A DNA stretch of 64,000 bases from an uncultured bacterium (GCA_965369865.1 CBDURU010000001.1:32001-96000); one strand, 5' to 3'; positions 9,348-64,000 are shown, counted from the first letter of the stretch. A program made the numbers and translations. Notes: generated from the sequence alone by a model not told the origin.

Positions 9348-11198
9348 CTACCTGGTCTCAACAGCATCGAATTTACACACACTCTTACAGGCTCCGCACT
9401 TAATGCACTTAGTGGTGTCAATAACATGCCGTACTTTCTTTTCACCTGAAATCGCGTTCTCAGGGCAAGCTTTCTTACAAAGGCCGCAAGCAGTACATTC
9501 TTCATTTATGTAATAGTGAATCAGTTCTTCACAGACTCCAGCCGGGCATCTCTTGTTCTGGATATGCTCGACGTATTCATCGCGGAAGTACCGCAAGGTG
9601 GACAGCACAGGATTTGGTGCTGTCTGACCCAAGCCGCACATTGTTGTGTCCTTAACTGTTTCCGCAAGTTCTTCGAGGAGATCCAACTGGTCAAGGGTCC
9701 CCTTACCCCTGGAGACATCATCGAGGATTTCATACATCCGTTGAGTCCCCATCCGACATGTGAAACACTTCCCGCAAGATTCGTCCTTCAGGAAATTCAT
9801 GAAATACCTGGCGAGATCGACCATGCATGTGTTCTCGTCCATGACGATCATGCCCCCTGATCCCATGATAGAACCGACTTTTGCCAGGCTGTCATAATCA
9901 ATTGGCAGATCAAACTTATCTACAGGAATACAACCGCCGGATGGTCCTCCTGTTTGAACGGCTTTTATCTTTGCCTTGCCGACAGGTCCTCCTCCGATGT
10001 CATATACAATTTCATTGATCGTGATGCCCATCGGGACTTCAACCAAACCGGTATTCTTTATCTTACCCACGAGGCTGAATATCTTGGTTCCAGAGTTCCC
10101 ATCGGTTCCTGTTTTAGCGTACTCAGTTGCTCCGTAATCTATAATGACCGGAATATTGGCCCAGGTTTCAACGTTATTAATAACGGTAGGTTTTCCGTTG
10201 ATACCTTTTTCGATGGGAAATGGGGGACGCTGACGCGGCTCTCCCACCTTACCCTCGACAGACCGCATCAAGGCTGTTTCCTCGCCACAAACGAACGCAC
10301 CGGCACCTTTCACAATCTGGATATCGAAGGAGAAATCGGAACCAAGTATGTTCTCACCGAGTAAGCCAAGATCCCTGGCTTGGTTAAGGGCAATAATCAG
10401 GTGTTTTATTGCCAGGGGATACTCATTCCGTATATAGATTACCCCGTCAGTAGCTCCGGAGGCATAAGCGCCGATGATCATTCCTTCTATGATGCTGTGT
10501 GGGCTGCCCTCCAGCACGCTCCTGTCCATGTATGCGCCAGGATCACCCTCATCCGCATTACATACAATATATTTACCTTCGCCGTTATGCTGTTTAGCGA
10601 GTAGTTCCCATTTAATTCCAGTTGGAAAACCTGCTCCCCCGCGTCCTCGTATTTCTGAGGTTTTAACCTGTTCAATCACCCATGTCGGATCCCTTTTTTC
10701 AAGGATCTTACAAAGGGATGAATATCCGCCGTTTTCGATGTAATTATAAATACGAATCGGGTCAACTTTTTCGTTCAGGGCGAGAAGAATCCGAGCCTGC
10801 TTTTTAAAGAAGGGAATATCTTCCTGTTTCTCGATCCTGTCACCAGATGGAGAATCAACATAAAGAAGATCTTCCAGGACCTTATCTTTCAGGACTGCAT
10901 CAATAATCCGATCCACATCCTTCGGTTTCACTTTTGGGTAAAATGTTCTGTTGGGCTCGATAAGCAGCGAGGGCTCCATCTGACAGAAACCGTGGCATCC
11001 TGTAATCCGCAGATTCACTTTCCCCATTAACCTTTTGCCAAGTATCCTGCGCTTCGCTGCCCGGATAAGCTCATTGGCGCCACTCGCCTGGCCACAAGTG
11101 CCAGCATTAATGATTATTGTGGGAACGCCGGGATCGCTATCTTCTGTCAAAACGGAGCGGAGTCTATTAAATTCGTCTATCGACCTTAGGTTTTCCAT
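9348..11198 (-). CDS. nuoF: NuoF/HydB-like NADH/FMN-binding subunit with N-terminal [2Fe-2S] and C-terminal 2x[4Fe-4S]
   Basis: RGRGGAGFPTG, NADEGDPGA, GAGAFVCGEET, GGPSGG, ESCGKCFTCR, CGLGQ. The symbol marks the family only; this is not complex I. Confidence 0.92.
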   Translation of the reverse strand: MENLRSIDEFNRLRSVLTEDSDPGVPTIIINAGTCGQASGANELIRAAKRRILGKRLMGKVNLRITGCHGFCQMEPSLLIEPNRTFYPKVKPKDVDRIIDAVLKDKVLEDLLYVDSPSGDRIEKQEDIPFFKKQARILLALNEKVDPIRIYNYIENGGYSSLCKILEKRDPTWVIEQVKTSEIRGRGGAGFPTGIKWELLAKQHNGEGKYIVCNADEGDPGAYMDRSVLEGSPHSIIEGMIIGAYASGATDGVIYIRNEYPLAIKHLIIALNQARDLGLLGENILGSDFSFDIQIVKGAGAFVCGEETALMRSVEGKVGEPRQRPPFPIEKGINGKPTVINNVETWANIPVIIDYGATEYAKTGTDGNSGTKIFSLVGKIKNTGLVEVPMGITINEIVYDIGGGPVGKAKIKAVQTGGPSGGCIPVDKFDLPIDYDSLAKVGSIMGSGGMIVMDENTCMVDLARYFMNFLKDESCGKCFTCRMGTQRMYEILDDVSRGKGTLDQLDLLEELAETVKDTTMCGLGQTAPNPVLSTLRYFRDEYVEHIQNKRCPAGVCEELIHYYINEECTACGLCKKACPENAISGEKKVRHVIDTTKCIKCGACKSVCKFDAVETR

Positions 11199-11260
11199 TT
11201 ATAAAACACTTCCTGTATTCCCGTTTTCTCTCCCGGCTTTCTGCAAACGCTAAATAATCA

Positions 11261-12109
11261 CTAGAAATTGACTCCGCTGAGATCCAGCATATGGTTCTTA
11301 CAACCCTTTCGCGAACATATCTGGACCATTCCTCCCCCGCTGACAATCATAGGAATCATCGGTGCACCACACATTACACAGTTCGTTGCACCTTTAAGTT
11401 CAGCATGGCAATGTGGGCAGAAGAAATGCACTACAGTTTCTTTCGGTATTTCATACTCGGAGAAAACCTTGTAGCTCCCGTACATGGAGGAAATTGTCAG
11501 CCAGCCATGCTTGCTGCCAAAGGATGCTGTCACACGTATCGATGGGTAGTCATCAATAATGCGTAAAGGGTCCATAAGGCTGTGGTTACACTTGGGACAG
11601 CTGACCTCAACGGGAAAGATATGATAGTCCTGCTCCAGATCCGCTGTTTCGAAACCTTCGGTGGCCTTCCCAATAATTCCCCTGACCTCTGTTTGCCCGA
11701 CATTGGAGAAGTAGTGTCCATCGACCACAACGATAGGACCAAGTGCACAAGCTCCAAGACAAGCCACTGTCTCCAGAGTGAATTCCTTATCAGGTGTAGT
11801 CTCACCGGCCTTGATGCCCAACTGGCTTTCAAATTCCTTGACTATAACCGGTCCTCCCCGGACATGGCAGGCTGTGCCAAGACAGGCACAGATAAGATGT
11901 TTCCCCCTGGGCTCCAGGCTGAAGGCCTTATAAAAGGTGGCCACGCCGTAGATATCAACGAGGGGGATGTTTTTCGCCTCGGCAACCATCCTTAAGGCTT
12001 CTTCAGGAAGGTAACTGAACCTTGCCTGTATGTCCTCGAGGATGGAAATCAGACCGTCCCCTTCCTGACTGTGTTTATCGAGTATATCCTGGACAATATC
12101 TGGATTCAT
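11261..12109 (-). CDS. nuoE: NuoE/HydC-like [2Fe-2S] subunit with a Cys-rich C-terminal extension
   Basis: VATFY, CLGTACH, CLGAC; tail with CPKC, CPHC, CVMC and CSRKGC. Family-level symbol. Confidence 0.9.
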   Translation of the reverse strand: MNPDIVQDILDKHSQEGDGLISILEDIQARFSYLPEEALRMVAEAKNIPLVDIYGVATFYKAFSLEPRGKHLICACLGTACHVRGGPVIVKEFESQLGIKAGETTPDKEFTLETVACLGACALGPIVVVDGHYFSNVGQTEVRGIIGKATEGFETADLEQDYHIFPVEVSCPKCNHSLMDPLRIIDDYPSIRVTASFGSKHGWLTISSMYGSYKVFSEYEIPKETVVHFFCPHCHAELKGATNCVMCGAPMIPMIVSGGGMVQICSRKGCKNHMLDLSGVNF

Positions 12110-12130
12110 AACTCATTATCCTTGCCTGTA

Positions 12131-12475
12131 CTAGCAGTACTCCTCGCAATGCCATACCCCAACTTCCGTGTTTGCATGCATGCACGTGTCTCTGTTATCA
12201 CAATTGACGCAGAGACCCTTTAGAATCATCGTTTCCTCGGGAACATCCGCCGATCTCGCCACTTGAGGGGAAACTCCAGCCTGATATTCATACTCCTCAC
12301 AGTAATGTACAGGATATCCCGGCGTCCGATGAATGCAATGGGGGGTTGCGGCGCACGTGGAGCACAGATCCTGGAACTGCTCATGGGGTTTGATTTCAAG
12401 CACTTTCTTCTCTTTGGCACGTCGGGCTTTCTTCGCCTTCGTGGCTTTCTTCTTCTTTACGCTTGCTTCTGACAC
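12131..12475 (-). CDS. Small Cys-rich protein with two LCxxC...C...CEEY repeats and a Lys-rich N-terminus
   Basis: LCSTC..HC..YCEEY and LCVNC..TC..HCEEY; GTG start with an AGGAGG RBS. Confidence 0.75.
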   Translation of the reverse strand: MSEASVKKKKATKAKKARRAKEKKVLEIKPHEQFQDLCSTCAATPHCIHRTPGYPVHYCEEYEYQAGVSPQVARSADVPEETMILKGLCVNCDNRDTCMHANTEVGVWHCEEYC

Positions 12476-12540
12476 CTTGTGCCTCCTTGATTGATTTTAC
12501 TTGCTGACTTCCATTTGAAACCCAGCCGCAAGCATTACCT

Positions 12541-12557
12541 TCCAAATGTTGTGCCAA
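12541..12557 (-). promoter_or_regulatory. Candidate sigma54 -24/-12 promoter
   Basis: Minus strand TGGCAC-AACAT-TTGG (one mismatch at -12), about 65 bp upstream of the operon and next to a sigma54 activator gene. Confidence 0.5.
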
Positions 12558-12721
12558 TACGGAGTAAGAGCCTGCAAATAGTCTATAAAAAGAGAAAATT
12601 TTCACAAAAGCCCTGTTTGCCAGGCATTTCGCGATAAAAAATACGGAAAATCGCCGAGTTCAGGCAATCATTCTGTAAAATATCAGGTGAAAGAAGAGGA
12701 AATATTGATGAAATTTGAATC

Positions 12722-12742
12722 GGTGGGGAATTTCTCCCCACC
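12722..12742. promoter_or_regulatory. Inverted repeat GGTGGGGA-N5-TCCCCACC; candidate upstream activator site or weak terminator
   Basis: Perfect 8-bp arms about 170 bp upstream of the sigma54 motif. Confidence 0.4.
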
Positions 12743-12753
12743 CAGGGCGGCTA

Positions 12754-14106
12754 CTATTTATCAGGCAGGTCACTGGCTTTGAGTTTCTCTCTAAGCGTTT
12801 TTCGATCGATCCCAAGTATCTTTGCAGCCTGGGTTTTATTCCCATCAACGCTGGCAAGCACCTTGCGAATATACTCGGTTTCGACCTGGGCAAGGCTTCT
12901 ATCAAGCCCGGTAGTATTATTTACGGAGAAACGCATCAGTGAAGGGAAATCATGAACGCCAATTACATCCCCATCGGTCATGACAATAAGCTGTTGGATC
13001 AGGTTCTGAAGCTCACGGACATTTCCGGGCCAGGAATAATTCATCAGGGCACGCAATGCGTCGTCGCTATACGAGGGCGGCACCCTGCTAGACTCCTCGG
13101 CGAATTTTCTCGTGAAATGATTAACCAGAACAAGGATATCTTCTTTTCTCTTGCTGAGAGGAGGTATGGCAATATTAACAACGTTCAGCCTGTAGTACAG
13201 ATCCTCCCGAAACGAGCCGTTTTCGACCAGCTTCAGGAGGTCCTTATTCGTAGCAGCGAGTATTCTTACATCAACTTTACGCGGCTTTGTAGAACCCACC
13301 ATACAGATTTCTTTGTCCTGCAGCACTCGAAGGAGCTTCACCTGCATAGCAAGGCTCATTTCACCAACTTCATCGAGAAAAATCGTGCCGCCATCGGCAG
13401 TCAGGAAGAAACCGGCGCGTGTTTCATTTGCCCCGGTGAAAGCCCCCTTAACATAACCGAAGAGTTCGCTTTCGAGAAGGCTCTCGGGGATACCGCCGCA
13501 ATTCACGGGTACAAAGGGAGATGAAGCCCTGGGGCTTGAATAATGTATGGCCCGGGCTACGAGTTCCTTACCGGTGCCACTTTCGCCATAAATCAGCACA
13601 GTAGCGGTTGTCGATGCCACTTTATCAATGGCATTGTGAACTTTAAACATGCCATCCGAACTTCCGATCATGCCGCGCGATTCAAACGAACCAATATTCA
13701 GTGGGGCCTCTGCAGTCCTGCGCATATGCAATTTCTCAAGCGCTGTCTGAACAGCACCCAGGAGTTCTTTATCTGTAAACGGTTTGGACAAATATTCTTC
13801 GGCTCCAGCCTTGACCGCCTCCACTGCTCCCCCGACAGTGGCATAGCCGGTGATCATCATCACCTCGGTATCCTTGTAATTTTCTCTGATATGCCTAATC
13901 AGATCGAGTCCGCTGACCCTGGGCATTTTCAGGTCGGTGATAACGAGGTCCAGGGTGGTGGACTCAAGTGTTGTGATCGCCTCGACGACATTTAATGCCG
14001 TGAAAACATGATATCCCTCCCTGGTAAGATTCCTCCGAATTACTTCCAGAGTGGGTTCGGAGTCATCCACAACCAATATGCTTTCCTTTTCATTCTGCGG
14101 TTTCAT
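12754..14106 (-). CDS. Sigma54-dependent NtrC-family response regulator
   Basis: Receiver (VVDD, DLKMP), GESGTGKE, GAFTGA, FLDE, WPGNVREL and Fis-type HTH; start moved to ATG 14106. Confidence 0.95.
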   Translation of the reverse strand: MKPQNEKESILVVDDSEPTLEVIRRNLTREGYHVFTALNVVEAITTLESTTLDLVITDLKMPRVSGLDLIRHIRENYKDTEVMMITGYATVGGAVEAVKAGAEEYLSKPFTDKELLGAVQTALEKLHMRRTAEAPLNIGSFESRGMIGSSDGMFKVHNAIDKVASTTATVLIYGESGTGKELVARAIHYSSPRASSPFVPVNCGGIPESLLESELFGYVKGAFTGANETRAGFFLTADGGTIFLDEVGEMSLAMQVKLLRVLQDKEICMVGSTKPRKVDVRILAATNKDLLKLVENGSFREDLYYRLNVVNIAIPPLSKRKEDILVLVNHFTRKFAEESSRVPPSYSDDALRALMNYSWPGNVRELQNLIQQLIVMTDGDVIGVHDFPSLMRFSVNNTTGLDRSLAQVETEYIRKVLASVDGNKTQAAKILGIDRKTLREKLKASDLPDK

Positions 14107-55556: not shown

Positions 55557-58064
55557 TCAAGGATTGTACCTCGCGACGAAAATATTAAAACCTGCGCCGG
55601 AAGTCAGTAATGTCTCGTATGGTTCGCCCTCTCCGAATAAGGCAAAGCCTGAGAACCTACCTGTAACTACTGTAGAGTCATCCGAAAGTGCTGTGATCCC
55701 ATAACCATAATCTCTTTTGCTCCCGCCGGCACGTTTCACCCATACGAGCATTCCATCCGGGTCATACCTCGCAACGAAAACATCATAGTCCCCGTCGGAA
55801 GTGAGCACGGTCTGGTTTGGATCACCCTTCCCGAATGTGGGTGAATCTTTGAACCCCCCTGACAAAACGGTCGAGTTGTCTGAAAGCGTTGTGATTCCAT
55901 TACCCAAGCTCCAATCAGGATCGACAGCGCCTTTCGCCCAAGCAAGTGTTCCGTCCGGGTTGAATCGCGCGATAAAAATACCACCTGAACTTATGAAATT
56001 CAGCACAGTCTCATTAGGTCCACCCTCTCCGAATGTGGCTGATCCTCCAGACCGACCTGTTACTACGGTGGAGTCGTTGGAAAGCGATGTTATTCCATAA
56101 CCACGGTCAAAACCAATCCCTCCAGCACGTTTCGCCCACGCGAGTGTTCCGTCCTGGTTATACTGCGCGACGAAGATGTCATTTCCGTCAAAACCTCCAT
56201 GGAAGGAAAAGAGCACAGTCTGATTCGTTTCGTCCTTCCCGAATGTGGCTGGTCCGATGTACGACCCTGTTACAACAGTCGAGTTGTCTGACAGGGCGGT
56301 AATTGCATAACCGATATCCCCTGGATATGTACTGCCGCCAGCGCTTTTTGCCCAGGCAAGCGTTCCGTCCGGATTGTACCTCGCAACGAAAATATTATCG
56401 TTATTTCCCCCTGAAGTGAGTTGTGTCTGATTTGGTTCACCCTCCCCGAATGTAGCTGATCCCCTGAAGTATCCTGTTATTACAGTCGAGTCATCTGAAA
56501 GCGCGGTAATTCCATAACCGATATCCCCTGGATATGTGCTGCCGCCAGCGCTTTTCGCCCATGCAAGCGTTCCATCCGGGTTATATCGCGCGACGAAAAT
56601 ATTACAATTTTCTGAGGAAGTCAGTATGGTCTCATTCGCTTCACCCTTACCGAATGTGGTCCATCCTCTGAAACGCCCTGTTACCACGGTTGAGTCGTCC
56701 GAAAGCGATGTAATTCCATAACCCTCGTCCTCAACGCCCCCGCCAGCGCTTTTCGCCCATGCAAGTGTGCCGTCCGGGTTGTACCTTGCGACGAAAATAT
56801 CCTGCAAGCTAACGGAAATCAGCACAGTCTGATTGGGTTCCCCTTTTCCAAAAATAGCTGTTGCGTAAAAAATGCCGGTTACTACAATCGAGTTGTCCGA
56901 TAGTGTTGTGATTGCATAACCTTTTGCCATATCCCCGCCTGCGCTTTTCGCCCAGATCAGATTACCGTCTTCTTCCAAAGTAGTTCCATATTCGACCTGC
57001 CATGCATCAATCTGCCCTGAAAATTCATCAACTTCGGTGTCAACTACCCGTATGAGTAATGGAGAATCATCAGCAGTGCCACCCAAATCATTTAAAATTG
57101 TTCCGGTATATTCTGTGCTGTTTTCCTCACCAGTAGATTGGGTTAATTCAACAACTCCGTTGAATAAACCAGGCGCTTCAACGGTGACTTTGTTGATAGT
57201 TGAAATCCCCTGATGATCATACACTATAACCTTGATTGATTCAGACCCACCAGACTCAGGCCATGAGTCCATACTTGCATTAACAAAGTACGCCTCATTA
57301 CAATTCGCTTCAGGAGGAAAGTCGTTCACCGGGTCGTCCCATGTGTCGATCTCCATCCAGCACGCATCGACCGCATAGCCGAATTTTAAATCCCCAGGCG
57401 GTACATGAAGCCTTGCGCGACGGTGATCCTCCTCACCGGATTCTATCATACGCCGAGGATTTTCCCGGCCAAATGCGATGAATGGGTTTAAAGTTGCCGA
57501 GAAATCATAGCCGATCGACATGATTCCAGGGAAGTATGTCAAAATTGGTGTATTTTCGTTGTACGGAAAATCGGTTGGGTTGAAAAGTGTCGTGAATCCA
57601 GCCGGATTCATAATCCGGGGATTACTTCCATTGAAAGAGACCCTCTTACCGCTACCAGGGAAAGTATAGTCGGCATCGGTAATAAAAATAAACCGCATAT
57701 CGAATACAGTGTATTGCGGGAGATCGGGTAGCGGGTGTTTCAATTTTATATCGCAGGAAAAATTATTGCTATCATAGATTATGAAATCGCTGAACCAGAT
57801 GCAATCAGGACACAGCTCTATGAAAGGCAGGATGTTCAGGTGCATCGCGAGATCGCGGTTCGGTATTACTTCGACTGTCTGCCGATCTTCGGATATGCTG
57901 ACTTCGCCGACATTCAGGAGAATGCGGTTATCGCTGACAGTCGTCCGGTCATTGGGCTGGGGGGCGTTATCCGGGAGCAAGGCAGGATTCTCACCACCGG
58001 ACGAGCAACCGATAACAATCAGCAATGTGATTGTGATTAGGAGTACCAGTGAATGCGCTTTCAT
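55557..58064 (-). CDS. Lipoprotein with a conserved N-terminal domain and SBBP-like beta-propeller repeats
   Basis: VIGC lipobox; GGAGGG RBS before ATG 58064; paralog of 42234-44807. Confidence 0.82.
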   Translation of the reverse strand: MKAHSLVLLITITLLIVIGCSSGGENPALLPDNAPQPNDRTTVSDNRILLNVGEVSISEDRQTVEVIPNRDLAMHLNILPFIELCPDCIWFSDFIIYDSNNFSCDIKLKHPLPDLPQYTVFDMRFIFITDADYTFPGSGKRVSFNGSNPRIMNPAGFTTLFNPTDFPYNENTPILTYFPGIMSIGYDFSATLNPFIAFGRENPRRMIESGEEDHRRARLHVPPGDLKFGYAVDACWMEIDTWDDPVNDFPPEANCNEAYFVNASMDSWPESGGSESIKVIVYDHQGISTINKVTVEAPGLFNGVVELTQSTGEENSTEYTGTILNDLGGTADDSPLLIRVVDTEVDEFSGQIDAWQVEYGTTLEEDGNLIWAKSAGGDMAKGYAITTLSDNSIVVTGIFYATAIFGKGEPNQTVLISVSLQDIFVARYNPDGTLAWAKSAGGGVEDEGYGITSLSDDSTVVTGRFRGWTTFGKGEANETILTSSENCNIFVARYNPDGTLAWAKSAGGSTYPGDIGYGITALSDDSTVITGYFRGSATFGEGEPNQTQLTSGGNNDNIFVARYNPDGTLAWAKSAGGSTYPGDIGYAITALSDNSTVVTGSYIGPATFGKDETNQTVLFSFHGGFDGNDIFVAQYNQDGTLAWAKRAGGIGFDRGYGITSLSNDSTVVTGRSGGSATFGEGGPNETVLNFISSGGIFIARFNPDGTLAWAKGAVDPDWSLGNGITTLSDNSTVLSGGFKDSPTFGKGDPNQTVLTSDGDYDVFVARYDPDGMLVWVKRAGGSKRDYGYGITALSDDSTVVTGRFSGFALFGEGEPYETLLTSGAGFNIFVARYNP

Positions 58065-58247
58065 CCTGAAACCCTCCATTCTTAGGAAAAGGCATTTAAA
58101 CTCGGGTACAATATTACACTAATGAATCAGAGTTTGAATAGAGATAAATTGTAGCCCAGGTTATTTTGGAAGTCAACCAAATTTAAGGGGGTCAGGATTT
58201 GAGTTTGAATCGTTGACAAGCACGTTCGACCCTAAGATTGGCTGGGA

Positions 58248-60542
58248 TTGGTAGAAAATTATGTCTCACTCGGCTTGTCAAGGCCATTCTTTAGGGTTTT
58301 AATTAATTTACGTACATGTTATTATTTCATTCGTACAAGAACAGGGAATCCGGCTTCACATGGAGCCAACCCGCAGGGAGTCACAGAGATAGAAAAAGCA
58401 GGCGAAAATTCTACGATTAATCCGTTTTTTGTTGAAGAGCCGAGGATGGTATACGGTCCTGAGGCCGGCGACTGGCTGGAGCAATTCTGGCACCCTGAGC
58501 GACCCAATTATTATCTGCAGTTGTCGCAACCCCCGGATTATTACAGGGCACAGGAATGTTCAGTTTTTCTGCTGGTCCATGTAAAAGACATCTGGCCTCC
58601 AGGGGTGCTTATGGTCGGGGACAGGGGTATCCAACTGGATAGAATTATCGATGGTGAGTTGATCGTTGAGCCGTATCCCGGAGTGGCGGAAGGCGCTGGG
58701 ATCTGGATTGATAATGAGCCCTGGGCCGAGGATGAATGGGACTCATGGGCGGACCCTAACATGGGATATCGCATCGCCGAGGACGCTAAACCCAGGGGGG
58801 ATGAGTTTATAATAATATTTGAGATGGACGCGTTACTGGCTGATCCCGGCCTTGATGAGGTTAAGGTGCGTGTTACCGACTTCCACGAAAATTGGACAAG
58901 GACGGATAATGTGCTGGACCAGCAGGGCGGTGAATATGTTGTACGCGACTTGATGTTCAGGGATAATAACAGGTATCCGGATGACAATGATCCCTGTTAT
59001 TACCCTAACAATCAACCTCCGTACAGGAGAGTTGAATGCGACGGTTATGTAATGCCAAGGCCGGGCGGGACAACAGCCCTTGATGTGGTTGCGATCGTGT
59101 CATCTTATCATCCACCCGACAGTATCCCGGTCGATATTAGCGCACCTACTGACGAACCAGTGACTGGTGGTGGAGCGGAACAAGTAACTGCTCTATTGTA
59201 CCGCCTGAATAAAAGCGCGTGTCCGAGTGAATGGCTGGAAATTTGGAGTGACAGCACGTGTGCCGGTGCTATTTACAGTTCATGTGTTGAAATATACTGC
59301 CGTTATGCTACCGGGCGGGTATTCTATAATTGCCCTGAGGATCCACCGATGGTGGCTGCTACGGATAATGGGTACACCACAGTGTCATCACCTGCAAATC
59401 CTGTTGATTATTCGGAAACGCCGTTCTTGTATGTCAGCAGCAGCGATCACCTGATCGACGACCCAGGCGGGGATTATAAGGACTGGGCAAGTGCTATGGC
59501 GAGTGGTGTACAGATTAGTGGAAGTCCAATTCAGGATGCGAATATTTGGCACCATGCAGGTATGATTTTATCTGCTAGTTACGGAAATGGATTCCGGGGT
59601 TTATATGAAACTGAACTCGAGCAAAGTCCTGAATGGACTTTTGGGGGTGGGTGCAGTATAGAGAACCAGTATTACGCAAACTATAAAGACAACGTATTAA
59701 CTTATGGGTTTGAATTGGTTAAAGCTGAATGTGATGGATATGAAGCGCACTATGCAATTCAAAGCCAGGCAGATGTAATGTTTGTTCTTGCGCACGGTGA
59801 AGTGTTCGGTAGGCCTGCAGGAAGGAACATGTATGGTGAATGGGAGGAATCAAATACCCATGCAATTCCTCCAGGTACAGATATACTTGGGAATCCATGG
59901 GTCGATCAACCGTATTTATTCTATTTCCCGGAAAGCCCGTTACCACCTTATGACGAAACTGGTAATAAGAATGATATTATTGTCTGGGATGATTGGCCTG
60001 GTTATCTTGGGCCAAATCCAGATTCGGATTGGCTTGTCTTGATGGCGTGCCTTCAGCTTGGTGATCCCAGTACTCTTGCCCAATGTAATGCCTGGCTTTC
60101 ATATCGCCACCTTATCCAAAATTCGAGTATCAGATCCGTATTGGGCCATAGGGATTTACATAATGGTGGTGCATATTCTGTAGGGATTGGTAATAATCCA
60201 TTGCATCCAAATCTTTTTACTGGGACTTGGGAGGATGCTTTTATTGTTATGTTCTGCGGTTATCTGGAGTCAGGAGACTATCAACCTCACCCAACGGAAC
60301 GGTGGTTGAATTACGATCCATCAGTTGAATATGGGGCAATGTGTTACATGGAAGCTGCATGGTTGTATTATTATTACTATGAAACAATGTGCGGCCCGTG
60401 GGAGGAAGATCATGTTTTCCAGGATACTACTACAATTATTACTGCAAGTGCAGTTGATTTGAATTATCGATACATTTTAGAAAAAGTACGTACTGCCGGT
60501 ATACCAGAAGATGATTGGCCGGTAAGAATACATGTACTTTGA
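58248..60542 (+). CDS. Cassette protein 1: conserved N-block + variable region + putative clan CD (DUF6345-like) His/Cys domain; true start unclear
   Basis: ADVMFVLAHG, DWLVLMAC, SVLGHR; no signal peptide or good RBS at the TTG. Confidence 0.65.
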   Translation: MVENYVSLGLSRPFFRVLINLRTCYYFIRTRTGNPASHGANPQGVTEIEKAGENSTINPFFVEEPRMVYGPEAGDWLEQFWHPERPNYYLQLSQPPDYYRAQECSVFLLVHVKDIWPPGVLMVGDRGIQLDRIIDGELIVEPYPGVAEGAGIWIDNEPWAEDEWDSWADPNMGYRIAEDAKPRGDEFIIIFEMDALLADPGLDEVKVRVTDFHENWTRTDNVLDQQGGEYVVRDLMFRDNNRYPDDNDPCYYPNNQPPYRRVECDGYVMPRPGGTTALDVVAIVSSYHPPDSIPVDISAPTDEPVTGGGAEQVTALLYRLNKSACPSEWLEIWSDSTCAGAIYSSCVEIYCRYATGRVFYNCPEDPPMVAATDNGYTTVSSPANPVDYSETPFLYVSSSDHLIDDPGGDYKDWASAMASGVQISGSPIQDANIWHHAGMILSASYGNGFRGLYETELEQSPEWTFGGGCSIENQYYANYKDNVLTYGFELVKAECDGYEAHYAIQSQADVMFVLAHGEVFGRPAGRNMYGEWEESNTHAIPPGTDILGNPWVDQPYLFYFPESPLPPYDETGNKNDIIVWDDWPGYLGPNPDSDWLVLMACLQLGDPSTLAQCNAWLSYRHLIQNSSIRSVLGHRDLHNGGAYSVGIGNNPLHPNLFTGTWEDAFIVMFCGYLESGDYQPHPTERWLNYDPSVEYGAMCYMEAAWLYYYYYETMCGPWEEDHVFQDTTTIITASAVDLNYRYILEKVRTAGIPEDDWPVRIHVL
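58473..58915 (+). repeat. 443-bp direct repeat, copy 1
   Basis: Aligns without gaps to 61740-62182; about 320-bp core identical by eye. Confidence 0.95.
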
Positions 60543-60563
60543 GGACCTGAGAGGAGTATAATC

Positions 60564-61721
60564 ATGAATATTATTAAAATATACAAACTATTAGTAATTA
60601 ATGTTTATACATTATTATTCCTTACTTTAACTTCAACAGCTCATTCCACAACAATACTAAGTGAAATAAGTACGGAGAATATGCAACCGTATAGAATTAT
60701 CCCGGGAACTATTTCCAATGAATTCTGGATAGTAGGCCAGGCAAAAGGATTAGGATTGCTTGTGGAAGATCAACAGGGAGCCTGGTCATTTACACAGTAT
60801 CCCATAGGCTCAGTATGGGATGCAGTGGGACCTGATAATAATGGCAGGATTTGGTGTTCAAGTTTTGTAACGGGAATTGGAACAGCCATACAAGTTTTTA
60901 ATTGCAATACAAAGGATGTAATCCAAAATGTTAATATTGGCCCTGATTATGTAACGACAGGAATTACACTTTCTATTAATGAGGACTATGTGTATCTACT
61001 GGGTTGGGATTGGCCAAGATTTGGTGAACCGGGAAGTTGGGTATCCAGTTTCGGTCACCCAAATGCAGGCATTGTATGGGAAATTAATATATCTTCATTT
61101 GAAGTTTCCCCAGATATTGGTGTTGTTGGAGTATTTCCGTATACAATATATTACGCTGGAAGCCAAGAAACAGATAAACTCCTAGTTTACACTCTCGCAC
61201 GGGATGATGTAGGTCGAGAAGGTGGGGAATGTATTGACATCCTGGCAGTGGATAGAAGTTTCCCACGCTTAGGAGGGCTCCCGGCATGCTTTACAAATGA
61301 ATATCTATACTGCAATGACCTAGTAAAATGGTCAGATGAAGATCCGCTTATAGCACTGTGTAATCGTTCGGTAGATAATATGGGGGATAGTGAAGATTTC
61401 TCCGATGGATTATGGATCATCGATACAGAATTAGAAGAAGTTGTTCAGACATACCGTATATATGACATCGCGGACAGGATCAGGGGAGTTCAGCATCTTT
61501 GTGTGAGTGAAGTCCGTCCGGGGATCGCATATATGAGTCTTGGTTTTGGTGGTCTTGACGCAGAGACCGCGGTTTTTGATATGGCTACCGGACAGGTTAT
61601 CGAGCACATTCAAACCGGTCTTGTTTTCACTCCGGAATTTATTTATGAATTACCAGATGGCAGACTTATTGTCACTGGCGGCAGGACAAAAAATATAGTC
61701 ATCATCGACCCGTTACATTGA
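60564..61721 (+). CDS. Secreted YncE-like beta-propeller protein (partner of cassette 1)
   Basis: GAGAGGAG RBS; signal peptide (AHS); beta-strand repeats such as LWIIDTE, VFDMATG, LPDGRLIV. Confidence 0.7.
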   Translation: MNIIKIYKLLVINVYTLLFLTLTSTAHSTTILSEISTENMQPYRIIPGTISNEFWIVGQAKGLGLLVEDQQGAWSFTQYPIGSVWDAVGPDNNGRIWCSSFVTGIGTAIQVFNCNTKDVIQNVNIGPDYVTTGITLSINEDYVYLLGWDWPRFGEPGSWVSSFGHPNAGIVWEINISSFEVSPDIGVVGVFPYTIYYAGSQETDKLLVYTLARDDVGREGGECIDILAVDRSFPRLGGLPACFTNEYLYCNDLVKWSDEDPLIALCNRSVDNMGDSEDFSDGLWIIDTELEEVVQTYRIYDIADRIRGVQHLCVSEVRPGIAYMSLGFGGLDAETAVFDMATGQVIEHIQTGLVFTPEFIYELPDGRLIVTGGRTKNIVIIDPLH

Positions 61722-63536
61722 TTCGTTGCAGTCCCTGAATGGCTCGAGCAGTTCTGGCATCCTGAGTTACCCAATTATTATCTGCAGTTGACGCAGCACC
61801 CGGATTATTACAGGGCACAGGATTGTTCAGTTTTTCTGCTGGTCCATGCAAAAGACATCTGGCCTCCAGGGGTGCTTATGGTCGGGGACAGGGGTATCCA
61901 ACTGGATAGAATTATCGATGGTGAGTTGATCGTTGAGCCGTATCCCGGAGTGGCGGAAGGCGCTGGGATCTGGATTGATAATGAGCCCTGGGCCGAGGAT
62001 GAATGGGACTCATGGGCGGACCCTAACATGGGATATCGCATCGCCGAGGACGCTAAACCCAGGGGGGATGAGTTTATAATAATATTTGAGATGGACGCGT
62101 TACTGGCTGATCCCGGCCTTGATGAGGTTAAGGTGCGTGTTACCGACTTCCACGAAAATTGGACAAGGTCGGATAATGTGCTTGAGGACATTGATGGCCT
62201 TTATACTGTAACTAAAGTGGGGATAATCGAACAAAATTACCAGGGAACGACTGTTCTGGCGGACTTCTGCGGCGTGCCGGTATGTAATAGAGTAGCCGGT
62301 GAATACACTCTTGATTATGTAGCTCAGGTAGTAACTTCGGATTACATTGAACCGCCTGACTTCTTATGGAGCGTTATAAATTCTCCACTGCATGAGGGCA
62401 GTGTCGGCTTAGTTGAAATAAATGTTCCCATTTATCGTCTGGATCCTGAATTGGACAGGTATGAAATATACAATGAACTGTTTCCCCCTCATGGCTATCA
62501 ATGCAATGTTCATTATTATTCTCGCGGGCTGGAATTATTAATCCCTCCCGGCGAAGTCGCCCCGGTTGTCATTGATGACTGGCGAGAATCGGTTCAGCCA
62601 ATGCACGAGGAAGACTATGGTACATGTCCGCATCTGTATTTGAGCGATAGGGACCATTTACTTGGTATCGAAGGTGATCCTAATAATGATCAATGGAAAG
62701 ACTATTCAATAGCAATGGCAATTGACTCAGATATCCGTGATTTCTATGACAAAGCTCTTAATTCAATGTATTTTGGTAGCTCTGAAAGAGGGATATTTTA
62801 TGGCTGCAATGTTTTGATAGGTGATAAGGACAGCTATGCTGAAGATGTACTCGACAGCGGTGTTGAAAGGCTTAAAATCGATGTTGAAGAAAAGGAGGCG
62901 GATATTGGTATTCAAAGTCGAGGTGACGCATATTTTGTAATTGGGCATAGTTATGAAACAGGTAATCCTCCCGGGCAAGTACAAGGGATTTGGGAGTTTA
63001 TACCTTCGGCAAACCATAACGCCCCTGGCGATTGGAAGTATGTTGTTTCTAGAGATGATTTTGCAACCAGTGGAGATCTCGATCGGGAAGTAAACTGGTT
63101 GATTTCTCAAGCTTGTCATTTACTTGGTCCATCTTCGTATCAATATTGGCAGGCTCTAATACCGAATCAGTTGGATGCAATTTGTGGTTTTCGTTGCGCC
63201 AATATCAGGGAACTTCTGCCGGAATTTAGCAAGCTTGAAGAAGAAGGACCAAGCGCTTTCTTCGGAGGTTTTTCAACCAGGTTAACCAGTAATGAGGGGG
63301 CTCATGAAAGTTATTGGAAGTACGATAATCAAATCCCTAATGATCGCGCCATTATTGCGTGGATGGAGAACGCATGCGAATGGGCACGCATATTGAAATC
63401 AGAAGTTCGTAACCGTGAATACATGATGGAGAATGCTGCCGCAATTGATGAACTATACATTTATGAAATCGAATGGACTTCAAGCCCTTATGATTGGCCG
63501 CTCTTTGGTGAAAGCTTATACATTGTCAGATACTAG
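61722..63536 (+). CDS. Cassette protein 2 (start-less, probably an orphan module) with putative clan CD (DUF6345-like) His/Cys domain
   Basis: Frame is open from 61722 and homology begins at WLEQFWHPE, upstream of the first start codon (TTG 61788); GDAYFVIGHS, NWLISQAC, AICGFR. Confidence 0.65.
   Translation, partial: FVAVPEWLEQFWHPELPNYYLQLTQHPDYYRAQDCSVFLLVHAKDIWPPGVLMVGDRGIQLDRIIDGELIVEPYPGVAEGAGIWIDNEPWAEDEWDSWADPNMGYRIAEDAKPRGDEFIIIFEMDALLADPGLDEVKVRVTDFHENWTRSDNVLEDIDGLYTVTKVGIIEQNYQGTTVLADFCGVPVCNRVAGEYTLDYVAQVVTSDYIEPPDFLWSVINSPLHEGSVGLVEINVPIYRLDPELDRYEIYNELFPPHGYQCNVHYYSRGLELLIPPGEVAPVVIDDWRESVQPMHEEDYGTCPHLYLSDRDHLLGIEGDPNNDQWKDYSIAMAIDSDIRDFYDKALNSMYFGSSERGIFYGCNVLIGDKDSYAEDVLDSGVERLKIDVEEKEADIGIQSRGDAYFVIGHSYETGNPPGQVQGIWEFIPSANHNAPGDWKYVVSRDDFATSGDLDREVNWLISQACHLLGPSSYQYWQALIPNQLDAICGFRCANIRELLPEFSKLEEEGPSAFFGGFSTRLTSNEGAHESYWKYDNQIPNDRAIIAWMENACEWARILKSEVRNREYMMENAAAIDELYIYEIEWTSSPYDWPLFGESLYIVRY
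61740..62182 (+). repeat. 443-bp direct repeat, copy 2
   Basis: Offset 3267 bp from copy 1; begins 18 bp after the upstream stop codon. Confidence 0.95.
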
Positions 63537-63552
63537 TCCTTTGAGGTGAACT

Positions 63553-64000
63553 ATGAATCAAAGATTAAAAAAAGCAGTCAAACTGGGCCTTGTGCTTATG
63601 GCTGGCATACTGGGTATTTGCGCTCTTGTTTGGGCTGCAAGTCAGTCGTTCTCGTATGGACAACCGGGCGCAGTGCAAGCTTTGTTGAATGATGACGGTA
63701 GTCGACTGTATGTTTCGTACTACAGAGACAACAAAGTTGTAGAGATAGATACGGAAACGATGCAACAGGTTCGTCAATTTCAAATCGAATGGCCGGCCTA
63801 TATGGAGTTATCTGAGGATGAGTTATATTTGTATGCAATAAGCAGGGCTGTCACAGCCAGTATTAAAAGGATGCGCTTGTCTGACGGCAACATTGATCAG
63901 ATAATTCTGGAAGGTGATGTTATTTCGCTATCGTATGATCCTGACGGTAATCGTTTGTGGGTTGTTCACCGAACATGGCCAATGGATGGAGATGTAATGA
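63553..64000 (+). CDS. Secreted YncE-like beta-propeller protein (partner of cassette 2), truncated by the window end; absent from the ORF track
   Basis: GAGGTG RBS, ATG 63553; MNQRLKKAVKLGLVLMAGILGICALVWA signal; DDGSRLYVS, VVEIDTET, DPDGNRLWV. Confidence 0.8.
   Translation, partial: MNQRLKKAVKLGLVLMAGILGICALVWAASQSFSYGQPGAVQALLNDDGSRLYVSYYRDNKVVEIDTETMQQVRQFQIEWPAYMELSEDELYLYAISRAVTASIKRMRLSDGNIDQIILEGDVISLSYDPDGNRLWVVHRTWPMDGDVM

What the first reader, a model, noticed from the sequence alone, without database searches (positions are those of the whole stretch)
58248..64000. Candidate undescribed polymorphic effector-partner cassette array
Seen: the unit [ORF starting with a shared 443-bp block, then divergent] + [secreted beta-propeller gene 16-21 bp downstream with its own RBS] occurs twice in tandem and runs off the window. 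Neither large ORF has a signal peptide or convincing start, whereas both partners do. Known: CDI, Rhs and MafB loci keep start-less orphan C-terminal cassettes with a conserved 5' homology arm and a downstream immunity gene. Inference: these are silent cassettes that can recombine onto a full-length secreted gene elsewhere, here with peptidase-like heads and cognate propeller inhibitors, immunity proteins or binding partners. I see no Rhs, CdiA, MafB or LXG hallmarks, so the carrier may be new.
Basis: partly seen in the sequence, partly recalled or inferred. Interest (0 to 1): 0.9.

Follow-up and report, generated by a model that had tools for sequence, protein, structure and literature searches.

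The report
Start-less peptidase cassettes with propeller partners
This is a tandem array of beheaded copies of a surface-lipoprotein caspase-fold peptidase gene, each followed by an intact secreted beta-propeller gene, built like the orphan toxin/immunity cassettes of bacterial warfare systems but from protein families that have not been described.

Summary
The contig carries A1-B1-A2-B2-A3-B3-B4 plus a decayed A stub.

- **The A genes are 5'-truncated.** They have no lipobox and no usable ribosome-binding site; A2 has no start codon at the head of its frame.
- **Full-length A exists only elsewhere.** Relatives in other metagenomes are about 1100-residue lipoproteins with some 440 extra N-terminal residues. 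That part is absent from this 96%-complete genome.
- **A1 and A2 share a block.** 449 bp are 97% identical, then identity drops to about 40%. A2 and A3 stay about 90-97% identical for a further 600 bp before they diverge.
- **A ends in a peptidase.** The variable C-terminal domain has a caspase/clan-CD fold with a conserved His-Cys pair.
- **B is a seven-bladed propeller with a signal peptide.** B follows A in 24 of 25 assessable cases, and its divergence tracks that of the A peptidase domain (Mantel r 0.92).
- **The cassette pattern recurs.** Start-less A pieces directly after B genes occur in several other genomes, with 5' ends clustered at the same conserved block.

I read this as an orphan cassette array of an undescribed polymorphic lipoprotein-peptidase/propeller system, most likely effector and immunity. 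Neither toxicity nor A-B binding was shown. Neither protein matches a Pfam family or a solved structure by sequence.

The parts
58213..58285 (.). Copy of a dispersed REP-like palindromic repeat. It contains the TTG at 58248 that opens the 764-aa ORF, so that start is not coding.
   Evidence: The 14-nt core motif occurs 60 times in the genome, often in roughly 101-bp tandem arrays. Sequence read.
58412..60542 (+). A1: 5'-truncated cassette of a lipoprotein clan-CD peptidase gene. Homology to full-length relatives begins at 58412; an internal ATG is at 58446; the stop is at 60540-60542.
   Evidence: Alignment to the full-length P0004 and P0005. Contigs of two other metagenomes diverge from the window exactly at 58412, and one reads on upstream like the full-length protein. 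The N-terminal roughly 440 residues have no match in the genome.
58470..58918 (+). Shared 5' homology block, copy 1. It encodes most of a beta-sandwich (Ig-like) domain and ends just after the invariant VKVRVTD...NWxR motif (58860-58901).
   Evidence: 97% identical to copy 2. Identity by window; invariant residues; motif coordinates.
59442..60539 (+). A1 variable C-terminal domain with a caspase/clan-CD fold. Candidate catalytic His is at 59793-59795 and Cys at 60048-60050.
   Evidence: AlphaFold model with pLDDT 87. Structural matches over residues 333-676: CHAT domain 8rot_B Z 12.4, SAVED-CHAT 8tl0_A Z 12.0, clostripain 9cip_B Z 10.9, then metacaspase, legumain and gingipains; 29 of the top 30 rows are caspase-fold proteins. 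Cys present in 56 of 56 and His in 51 of 56 aligned relatives.
60564..61721 (+). B1: secreted seven-bladed beta-propeller, with an N-terminal signal or anchor helix and a strong ribosome-binding site.
   Evidence: Model with pLDDT 89: helix 2-23, then propeller from residue 31. Foldseek best match is the leptospiral antigen Lp49, 3bws_A, E 5e-11; BtuG and YVTN propellers follow. VIA Z is about 28 against many propellers. Ribosome-binding site.
61722..63536 (+). A2: start-less cassette. The frame opens directly after the B1 TGA and is in frame with it. The first start-like codon is TTG at 61788. Candidate His is at 62946 and Cys at 63114.
   Evidence: HMM match from family position 414 to the end.
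61737..62185 (+). Shared 5' homology block, copy 2.
63553..64000 (+). B2, 5' part: second-type secreted propeller. It runs off the window and the full gene ends at 64725 in window numbering (L021 7553-8725). Beyond it lie A3 (L021 8722/8746-10407), B3 (10422-11567), B4 (11702-12868) and a decayed A stub (about 13246-13395).

Best explanation
This is an orphan-cassette array of a previously undescribed polymorphic two-gene system.

The complete gene A, seen in relatives, encodes a roughly 1100-residue lipoprotein. It has a lipobox, an N-terminal region of about 440 residues, two beta-sandwich domains, and a C-terminal caspase-fold (clan CD) cysteine peptidase domain. Gene B encodes a Sec-exported seven-bladed beta-propeller.

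The A peptidase domain and B are inherited and exchanged together as one cassette. Conserved A sequence upstream serves as the homology arm. There are two recurrent switch points: one just after the VKVRVTD...NWxR motif and one just after the P-x-LYVSSSD motif.

In this genome all three A copies have lost the export signal and the translation signals, while all four B genes are intact. The locus is therefore a store of silent A cassettes plus expressed B genes.

Most likely A is a cell-surface effector peptidase used against neighbouring cells, and B is its specific extracytoplasmic inhibitor (immunity protein). In that case this strain keeps immunity and spare cassettes but, in the assembled genome, no armed effector.

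Shown: truncation, mosaicism, fold, catalytic pair, A-B linkage, co-variation, and recurrence in other genomes.
Inferred: recombination as the mechanism, B binding to A, inhibition, and toxicity.
For: 1. **Truncation.**
   - Full-length relatives P0004 (1143 aa) and P0005 (1109 aa) begin with a lipobox and carry about 440 residues that A1-A3 lack.
   - 9 of 15 family members of 1000 aa or more have a lipobox by my regular expression.
   - The A1 frame is homologous to them for 11 codons upstream of its ATG, back to 58412.
   - Contigs from two other metagenomes depart from the window exactly there. One reads on like the full-length protein.

2. **No parent here.** The N-terminal region has no match in the genome (95.7% complete), and the family model finds only the three copies plus a stub.

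3. **Translation signals.** B1, B2, B3, the 840-aa gene and X5 have GGAG-type sites 5-9 nt upstream; B4 has only a weak AGG. A1-A3 have none usable.

4. **Mosaic structure.** A1/A2 are 96-100% identical at nucleotide level over alignment columns 21-135, then about 40%. A2/A3 are 89-97% identical to about column 320, then about 50%.

5. **Same pattern in another genome.** In a genome of the same genus, two contigs share 239 nt at 96% and diverge at the same motif.

6. **Selection.** dN/dS between copies is 0.18-0.31 in the conserved parts. The copies therefore diverged under protein-level selection, not as dead genes.

7. **Peptidase.** The C-terminal domain has a clan CD fold and a conserved His/Cys pair.

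8. **Linkage of A and B.**
   - 24 of 25 assessable A 3' ends are followed by B on the same strand.
   - Across 10 pairs, A C-terminal identity tracks B identity (Mantel r 0.92, 1 in 10,000 permutations).
   - B follows the C-terminal domain and not the middle of A: for own A2/A3 the middle is 93% identical, the C-terminal domain 48% and B 35%.

9. **Orphans elsewhere.** A pieces sit directly after B genes in L015, L019, L020, L034 and L038, and one sits directly before a B in L051. The 5' ends cluster at family positions 412-462.

10. **B is kept when A is lost.**
    - Own genome: 4 intact B against 0 intact A.
    - G006: 18 B matches against 11 A matches.
    - B-B tandems and solitary B genes exist.

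11. **Published parallel.** CDI and Rhs orphan modules lack initiation signals, keep upstream homology, and are followed by expressible immunity genes (PMC3150448, passages read). Caspase-fold C-terminal toxin domains are listed for polymorphic toxins (PMC3482391, passages read).
Against: - No toxicity, inhibition or binding data exist.
- All variable heads belong to one fold with the same catalytic pair. Classical polymorphic toxins carry unrelated toxin domains.
- A 385-residue propeller is large for an immunity protein, and no beta-propeller immunity family is listed in the passages I read of PMC3482391.
- No dedicated delivery machinery (T5SS, T6SS or T7SS domains) is linked to the locus. 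How a lipid-anchored peptidase would reach another cell is unknown.
- No full-length A is in this genome, so the cassettes have nothing to recombine onto here unless the parent lies in the unassembled 4%.
- Solitary B genes at unrelated loci in G006 also fit B having a function of its own.
- Co-variation of adjacent genes can come from linkage alone.
- Distant A-like proteins in another class-level branch (G001) have no B match in their genome.
Confidence: 0.5

Rival explanations
1. A and B are a surface protease and its dedicated partner (zymogen inhibitor, chaperone or substrate adaptor), used for feeding or envelope maintenance and not against other cells. The family expands by tandem duplication. 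This locus is a decaying paralog array in which the A genes are dying and the B genes survive because they have uses of their own.
For: - The heads are all one enzyme fold.
- Solitary B genes lie beside unrelated housekeeping genes in G006.
- A heavily decayed A stub follows B4.
- Protease genes with a cognate inhibitor gene alongside are known (staphopain/staphostatin; recalled, not checked here).
Against: - Simple decay does not explain the sharp mosaic breakpoints at the same conserved motif in two genomes.
- It does not explain the clustering of cassette 5' ends at one block in unrelated genomes.
- It does not explain dN/dS of about 0.2 between start-less copies that stay open for 550-700 codons.
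- It does not explain the very fast joint divergence of the peptidase domain and B beside near-identical upstream DNA.
Confidence: 0.25
2. This is a cassette-based variation system for a surface protein. Silent A cassettes are copied by gene conversion into an expressed lipoprotein gene to change an exposed domain, for example to escape phages or grazers. B varies because it docks onto that domain.
For: - Start-less cassettes kept open under purifying selection.
- A conserved 5' arm.
- Surface location implied by the lipobox in full-length relatives.
Against: - No expression site is present in this genome.
- Each cassette carries its own complete, expressible B gene, which silent-cassette variation systems as I recall them do not need.
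- The catalytic pair is strictly kept, which points to selection on enzyme activity and not only on surface shape.
Confidence: 0.12
3. A1-A3 are ordinary expressed paralogs that start at internal codons (ATG 58446; TTG 61788; the TTG that overlaps the B2 stop, or the ATG 24 nt later), possibly by translational coupling to the preceding B gene.
For: - The frames are intact for 553-698 codons.
- The A3 TTG overlaps the B2 TGA as TTGA, a possible coupling site.
- dN/dS is below 1.
Against: - None has a signal peptide or lipobox, whereas full-length relatives are lipoproteins.
- None has a usable ribosome-binding site, while neighbouring genes do.
- The three putative N-termini fall at three different places inside one folded beta-sandwich domain.
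- The A1 frame keeps homology upstream of its ATG.
Confidence: 0.08
4. The array is an assembly artefact, formed by collapse or chimeric joining of repeats in a metagenome bin.
For: The genome is a 190-contig metagenome bin. The copies are near-identical over 449 bp.
Against: - Independent contigs of the best-holding run span the upstream junction (57900-58612) and run from A1 through B1 into A2 (58881-61879) with no differences. One loose end reproduces the B2-A3 junction.
- The same gene order recurs in other genomes.
Confidence: 0.03

Closest known systems
Orphan cdiA-CT/cdiI and rhs-CT/rhsI modules of CDI and Rhs loci (Poole et al. 2011, PMC3150448; passages read)
   Same: - Tandem gene pairs.
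- The first gene lacks initiation and export signals but keeps a varying length of homology to the conserved part of the full-length gene, ending at a demarcating motif.
- The second gene is complete and expressible.
- The modules are mosaic between strains.
   Different: - No TPS domain, FHA or RHS repeats, VENN or PxxxxDPxGL motif, and no cdiB gene; Pfam found nothing.
- The carrier is a lipoprotein.
- The cassette is much longer, 550-700 codons including two beta-sandwich domains.
- All heads share one fold.
- The partner is exported and is a propeller.
- No full-length gene heads this array.
Polymorphic toxins with a C-terminal caspase-like domain (Tox-Caspase; Zhang et al. 2012, PMC3482391; passages read)
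   Same: A caspase-fold His/Cys peptidase as the C-terminal-most, variable domain of a Sec-exported protein with a conserved N-terminal part.
   Different: - The immunity families listed there for Tox-Caspase are Imm36 and Imm57, not a propeller.
- No HINT, RHS or PVC features.
- This peptidase domain matches no Pfam model at E up to 1. Only 2 of 59 relatives touch DUF6345, at E 0.029 or worse.
SitA/SitI lipoprotein toxins of myxobacteria, delivered by outer-membrane exchange (Vassallo et al. 2017, PMC5562445; abstract and section headings read)
   Same: Polymorphic lipoprotein with a variable C-terminal effector domain and a cognate downstream gene. This shows that a lipid-anchored toxin can pass between cells.
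   Different: - SitA C-terminal domains are nucleases (section heading).
- I recall the SitI immunity proteins as cytoplasmic.
- Transfer there depends on TraA/TraB, which I did not look for.
- No sequence relation was tested.
Tse1/Tsi1 of Pseudomonas aeruginosa (Benz et al. 2012, PMC3391265; passages read)
   Same: A periplasmic immunity protein built as a partial beta-propeller that inhibits a peptidoglycan-hydrolase effector acting outside the cytoplasm.
   Different: - Tse1 is delivered by a type VI system. I recall it as papain-like, not caspase-like.
- Tsi1 is a small three-sheet fragment, not a full seven-bladed propeller.
- This is a resemblance in logic only.
Tandem immunity-gene arrays shaped by recombination between conserved blocks (esaG, tipC; Garrett et al. 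2022, PMC9484751; abstract read)
   Same: Strings of non-identical paralogs, with gain and loss driven by homologous recombination at shared sequence blocks.
   Different: There the blocks lie in the immunity genes. Here the shared block lies in the effector-like gene, and the B genes are very divergent (16-44% identity).

Membership tests
Polymorphic toxin systems (sensu Zhang et al. 2012) | Conserved N-terminal part joined to a sharply diverging C-terminal domain | tested here: met
   A1/A2 are 96-100% identical at nucleotide level and then about 40%. A2/A3 are 89-97% and then about 50%. The same break occurs in G011.
Polymorphic toxin systems (sensu Zhang et al. 2012) | Cognate gene immediately downstream that co-varies with the C-terminal domain | tested here: met
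   24 of 25 assessable A 3' ends are followed by B. Mantel r is 0.92 over 10 pairs. Linkage alone could contribute to this.
Polymorphic toxin systems (sensu Zhang et al. 2012) | Stand-alone 5'-truncated cassettes with their partner genes | tested here: met
   Own A1-A3 plus a stub. A pieces beside B genes in L015, L019, L020, L034, L038 and L051.
Polymorphic toxin systems (sensu Zhang et al. 2012) | The C-terminal domain is toxic and the partner neutralises it specifically | not testable with these tools
   Needs expression and rescue assays.
Polymorphic toxin systems (sensu Zhang et al. 2012) | Export or trafficking signal on the full-length protein | tested here: inconclusive
   A lipobox is present in full-length relatives. 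No full-length copy is in this genome.
CDI (CdiB/CdiA/CdiI) | TPS secretion domain, filamentous haemagglutinin repeats, VENN motif, cdiB neighbour | tested here: not met
   Pfam returned 0 families for the window frames, for 3 full-length relatives and for 26 long relatives. Neighbouring genes are unrelated.
Rhs / YD-repeat toxins | RHS/YD repeats and the PxxxxDPxGL demarcation motif | tested here: not met
   No Pfam match. The demarcating motifs here are different.
MafB and LXG toxins | MafB N-terminal domain (DUF1020), or LXG domain with type VII genes | tested here: not met
   No Pfam match in the full-length relatives.
Clan CD (caspase-haemoglobinase fold) cysteine peptidases | The fold | tested here: met
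   29 of the top 30 structural matches are caspase-fold proteins over model residues 333-676, Z 12.4 to 7.8. The model has pLDDT 87.
Clan CD (caspase-haemoglobinase fold) cysteine peptidases | Catalytic His before Cys, each following a hydrophobic strand | tested here: met
   H450 (..LAHG) and C535 (..LMAC). Cys in 56 of 56 and His in 51 of 56 aligned relatives.
Named clan CD families (C11, C13, C14, C25, CHAT, C80) | Sequence match to the family model | tested here: not met
   None reached E 10 in 59 relatives. Only DUF6345 appeared, in 2 of 59 with best E 0.029. The atlas feature search also points to DUF6345, score 0.92, as a lead only.
SitA lipoprotein toxins | TraA/TraB outer-membrane exchange partners and SitA N-terminal families | not tested
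   I did not search for TraA/TraB or compare sequences.

The most novel reading that the evidence does not exclude
This is a new kind of interbacterial weapon in an uncultured phylum-level lineage. A lipid-anchored surface protein, exported only by the general Sec/lipoprotein route, carries a caspase-fold peptidase as the toxin. A full seven-bladed periplasmic propeller serves as the strain-specific immunity protein. New peptidase/propeller pairs are swapped in from silent cassettes at two fixed motif boundaries. Strains like this one have disarmed but keep a multi-immunity island.
Probability: 0.35. Interest if true: 0.78.

Novelty: new variant of a known kind. Interest (0 to 1): 0.62.

Why it matters
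If the effector/immunity reading holds, three things are added to the known polymorphic-toxin repertoire:
- a delivery chassis that is a plain lipoprotein, with no dedicated secretion system visible;
- a caspase-fold peptidase family with no Pfam model;
- a whole beta-propeller as immunity protein.

It would also show that orphan-cassette genetics, known mainly from Proteobacteria, Neisseria and Firmicutes, operates in a barely sampled sediment lineage. That lineage has 14 species genomes in the collection, and 10 of them carry the family.

The conserved switch motifs and the clean cognate pairs (four B types in one locus) make it directly testable by expression and rescue. Even under the rival reading, it defines two new protein families and a strongly linked protease-propeller pair.

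Tried and rejected
- **Co-fold of A1 with B1.** A1 peptidase domain (residues 325-698) with mature B1, both with alignments. The tool's verdict was no answer (score 0.01, controls not run). This counts neither for nor against binding.
- **Foldseek on the whole A1 model against PDB.** No match at E 0.001 or better. The list was filled by antibody-like beta-sandwiches, with a C11 protease at rank 23. The wider structural search was needed.
- **Sequence search of solved structures with the family profile.** 0 matches at E up to 10.
- **Pfam.** Nothing above threshold for A or B. Weak sub-threshold propeller hints for B2 and for the L019 B only.
- **Promoter and terminator consensus scan of the array.** 37 promoter-like sites against 30.2 ± 5.1 expected. 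Not informative.
- **RNA evidence.** No RNA holder was listed among public runs. All three runs laid are contigs, so they cannot show rare recombinant joints, and none was listed.
- **Depth as a copy-number estimate** for a hidden fourth block copy. Set aside, because the tool warns against that use.
- **TGA recoding or read-through fusing B1 to A2** (same frame). Considered and rejected as the main reading. TGA ends A1, B1, B2 and B3, and the B2-to-A3 junction is in a different frame.
- **Earlier scan notes searched by sequence.** Nothing similar recorded.
- **dN/dS for the C-terminal domains.** Could not be computed because synonymous sites are saturated.
- **Literature.** One search for DUF6345 found a single proteomics paper that mentions it once. 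One search for Tox-Caspase found only Zhang et al.. I found no description of this family in print. Subscription journals are not covered.

Full report
**What is in the sequence**

The window is G000:C1:32001-96000. From 58248 to the window end, table 11 gives four frames:
- a 764-aa frame, 58248-60542;
- a 385-aa gene, 60564-61721;
- a 582-aa ORF from TTG 61788, inside a frame open from 61722 to 63536;
- a gene starting at 63553 that runs off the end.

I call the large frames A and the downstream genes B. Window 58470-58918 and 61737-62185 are 97% identical over 449 bp (one search gives 300 nt at 96%).

The contig continues for 29 kb. The array is A1-B1-A2-B2-A3-B3-B4. A third copy of the block lies at 64739-65053 in window numbering, 95% identical. 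A decayed A piece with stops follows B4. A remnant of a B1-type C-terminus sits just after the B3 stop, and the B2-A3 junction sequence recurs after B4. These are scars of repeated duplication and deletion.

Contigs of a public run that holds 97% of the stretch's sampled words cover 57900-58612 and 58881-61879 with no differences. This run may be the source sample, but the contigs come from another assembler. One loose end reproduces the B2-A3 junction. The arrangement is not an assembly artefact.

**The A frames are beheaded genes**

A1 has only nine relatives in 5.8 billion protein clusters, and 88 at E 0.001 or better among 1.84 billion representatives with a family profile.

Two relatives, P0004 (1143 aa) and P0005 (1109 aa), are about 440 residues longer at the N-terminus and begin with a lipoprotein signal. 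Of 15 family members of 1000 aa or more, 9 have a lipobox by my regular expression, and three more look lipobox-like by eye. Further full-length lipoprotein copies were read in L019, G006:C99, G013:C130 and G008:C178.

The A1 frame stays homologous to these proteins for 11 codons upstream of its ATG, back to 58412. Contigs of two other metagenomes (cold seep, marine) match the block from exactly 58412 and differ upstream. The cold-seep contig reads on with a peptide like that of the full-length proteins at that point.

Upstream of 58412 the window holds a copy of a dispersed palindromic repeat at 58213-58285. Its 14-nt core motif occurs 60 times in the genome. The repeat contains the TTG at 58248, so that start is spurious.

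The other two copies are cut further in:
- A2 begins eight codons further in, directly after the B1 stop. It has no start codon before TTG 61788.
- A3 begins about 53 codons further in.

None of the three has a signal peptide. B1, B2, B3, the 840-aa gene and X5 have GGAG-type sites 5-9 nt before the ATG, and B4 has only a weak AGG. A1 has GAGG abutting its ATG, and A2 and A3 have none.

The N-terminal 440-residue region has no match in this 95.7%-complete genome, and the family profile finds only the array. There is no armed parent in the assembly.

**What A and B are**

No Pfam model matches A or B, and no solved structure matches the A profile by sequence.

An AlphaFold model of A1, built from a 59-sequence alignment, has pLDDT 87 and pTM 0.84. 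It shows beta-sandwich domains in residues 1-330 and an alpha/beta domain after that.

An all-against-representatives structural search places residues 333-676 in the caspase/clan-CD fold:

| Match | Z |
|---|---|
| CHAT domain of DdvA, 8rot_B (rmsd 3.3, 191 aligned) | 12.4 |
| SAVED-CHAT, 8tl0_A | 12.0 |
| Clostripain, 9cip_B | 10.9 |

Metacaspase, legumain and gingipains follow. 29 of the top 30 rows are caspase-fold proteins.

A His (..AHG) and a Cys (..MAC) sit in the expected order. Cys is present in 56 of 56 and His in 51 of 56 aligned relatives. A feature search and two weak Pfam hits (2 of 59, best E 0.029) point to DUF6345 as the nearest named family. This is a lead only.

B1 models as an N-terminal helix followed by a seven-bladed propeller, pLDDT 89. 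The best Foldseek match is the leptospiral antigen Lp49 (E 5e-11), then BtuG surface lipoproteins and a YVTN propeller. Z is about 28 against many propellers.

B1 and B2-B4 are two very divergent types of one family, 15-18% identical in a joint alignment that keeps a few common motifs. B2, B3 and B4 are 32-44% identical to one another.

**Cassette behaviour**

Identity along the copies is mosaic:

| Pair | Near-identical part (nucleotide) | After the break |
|---|---|---|
| A1/A2 | 96-100%, alignment columns 21-135 | about 40%, right after the invariant VKVRVTD...NWxR motif |
| A2/A3 | 89-97%, to about column 320 | about 50%, after the P-x-LYVSSSD motif |

In a genome of the same genus (G011), two contigs that each start inside A share 239 nt at 96%. 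They then diverge at the same VKVRVTD...NWxR point, and each runs on into its own B.

Across ten A-B pairs, identity of the A C-terminal domain predicts identity of B. Mantel r is 0.92, reached by 1 of 10,000 permutations. Where the middle and the C-terminus of A disagree, B follows the C-terminus:

| Pair | A middle | A C-terminal domain | B |
|---|---|---|---|
| own A2/A3 | 93% | 48% | 35% |
| L017/L019 | 38% | 53% | 48% |

Two of the ten pairs (P0004/P0095 and P0002/P0097) were paired only because they come from contigs of the same length, so their adjacency is assumed. Adjacent genes also share history, so this shows a common cassette, not binding.

Between the start-less copies, dN/dS is 0.18 in the A2/A3 middle region (22 synonymous and 16 non-synonymous differences) and 0.2-0.3 in the shared block. 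With dS near 0.24 and frames still open for 550-700 codons, the copies did not diverge as dead DNA. They were selected as protein, either here or in the genomes from which they came.

**Recurrence**

The lineage has 14 species genomes in the collection. 10 have A-family matches and 11 have B-family matches at E 1e-5 or better.

I scanned the loci I had fetched with profiles of both families. This set was chosen from A and B hits, so it is not random, and the distant A-like hits of G001, G002 and G005 were mostly not fetched.
- 24 of 25 assessable A 3' ends are followed by a B gene on the same strand.
- The exception is the decayed stub in this array.
- Two further ends are cut by contig ends.

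Start-less A pieces lie directly after a B gene in several other loci:
- L015: full-length A, B, a 160-codon A tail, then B.
- L019: full-length A, B, then a 43-codon A piece that repeats the parent's own block.
- L020: two A pieces.
- G006:C110.
- G006:C126.

In G002:C193 (L051) an A piece lies directly upstream of a B.

The 5' ends of the cassettes cluster at family profile positions 412 (own A1, L019), 414 (own A2), 427 (G006:C126) and 462 (own A3). All lie at the start of the conserved block. In G006, two cassettes begin at one and the same point of the full-length paralog.

B outlasts A:
- This genome has four intact B genes and no intact A.
- G006 has 18 B matches against 11 A matches.
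- B-B tandems and solitary B genes occur.

**Reading**

These features match point for point the published description of orphan CDI and Rhs modules. Those fragments lack initiation and export signals, keep varying amounts of upstream homology up to a demarcating motif, are followed by expressible immunity genes, and act as a reservoir of diversity (PMC3150448, passages read).

Caspase-fold domains at the C-terminal end of Sec-exported polymorphic toxins are listed by Zhang et al., with other immunity families (PMC3482391, passages read). Lipoprotein polymorphic toxins exist in myxobacteria (PMC5562445, abstract read). A partial-propeller periplasmic immunity protein inhibits the effector Tse1 (PMC3391265, passages read).

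I therefore take the effector/immunity cassette model as the best explanation, with confidence 0.5.

Its weak points:
- There is no functional evidence.
- All heads share one fold.
- The partner is large.
- No delivery route is known.
- No parent is present in this genome.

The main rival (0.25) is a feeding or envelope protease with a dedicated partner, expanding and decaying by duplication. It does not explain the fixed switch points, the clustered cassette boundaries, or the joint hypervariability beside near-identical upstream DNA. Surface variation by gene conversion (0.12), ordinary expression from internal starts (0.08) and an assembly artefact (0.03) are less likely, for the reasons given under rivals.

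**Novelty and score**

I found no description of either family in the five literature searches or in Pfam and PDB. The genetics is of a known kind, while the chassis, the enzyme family and the partner are new. I rate it a new variant of a known kind, interest 0.62.

Noticed in passing
window 58213-58285; also L021 11640-11690 (upstream of B4) and other places in the genome: A palindromic REP-like repeat whose 14-nt core motif occurs 60 times in the genome. It is often in head-to-tail arrays with a period of about 101 bp (for example C15, C47, C78, C85, C90). One copy abuts the truncation point region of A1, and a short form lies between B3 and B4.
   Followed up: partly
window 61719-61724: The B1 stop (TGA) is in the same frame as A2, whose frame opens at the very next codon. 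Read-through would fuse the B1 signal peptide and propeller to A2. The B2-to-A3 junction is not in frame, so this is probably chance.
   Followed up: partly
L021 8722-8725 (window numbering 64722-64725): The first start-like codon of A3 (TTG) overlaps the B2 stop as TTGA, a possible termination-reinitiation site.
   Followed up: no
window 55557-58079 (minus strand) and L021 13608-17006: Two large lipoproteins flank the array. They share an N-terminal domain and carry repeats of 195-216 bp spacing encoding DUF5122-type propeller blades. The downstream one also has three PKD-like repeats by eye.
   Followed up: no
G006 loci L034, L036, L037, L039-L041, L048, L049: In a sister genus many B-family proteins are about 500 aa, with a conserved C-terminal extension of about 110 residues that is absent from the B genes of this window. 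Two such genes stand alone beside unrelated housekeeping genes.
   Followed up: partly
L043 (G010:C332) and L038 (G006:C126): In two other genomes one A is followed by a B1-type and then a B2-type propeller gene, the same order of types as in this array.
   Followed up: no
run X2 (cold seep metagenome): Short contigs match parts of A2 and the start of B2 with 0-3 differences. The same run also holds a longer form of the shared block. This cassette therefore circulates in a second habitat.
   Followed up: partly
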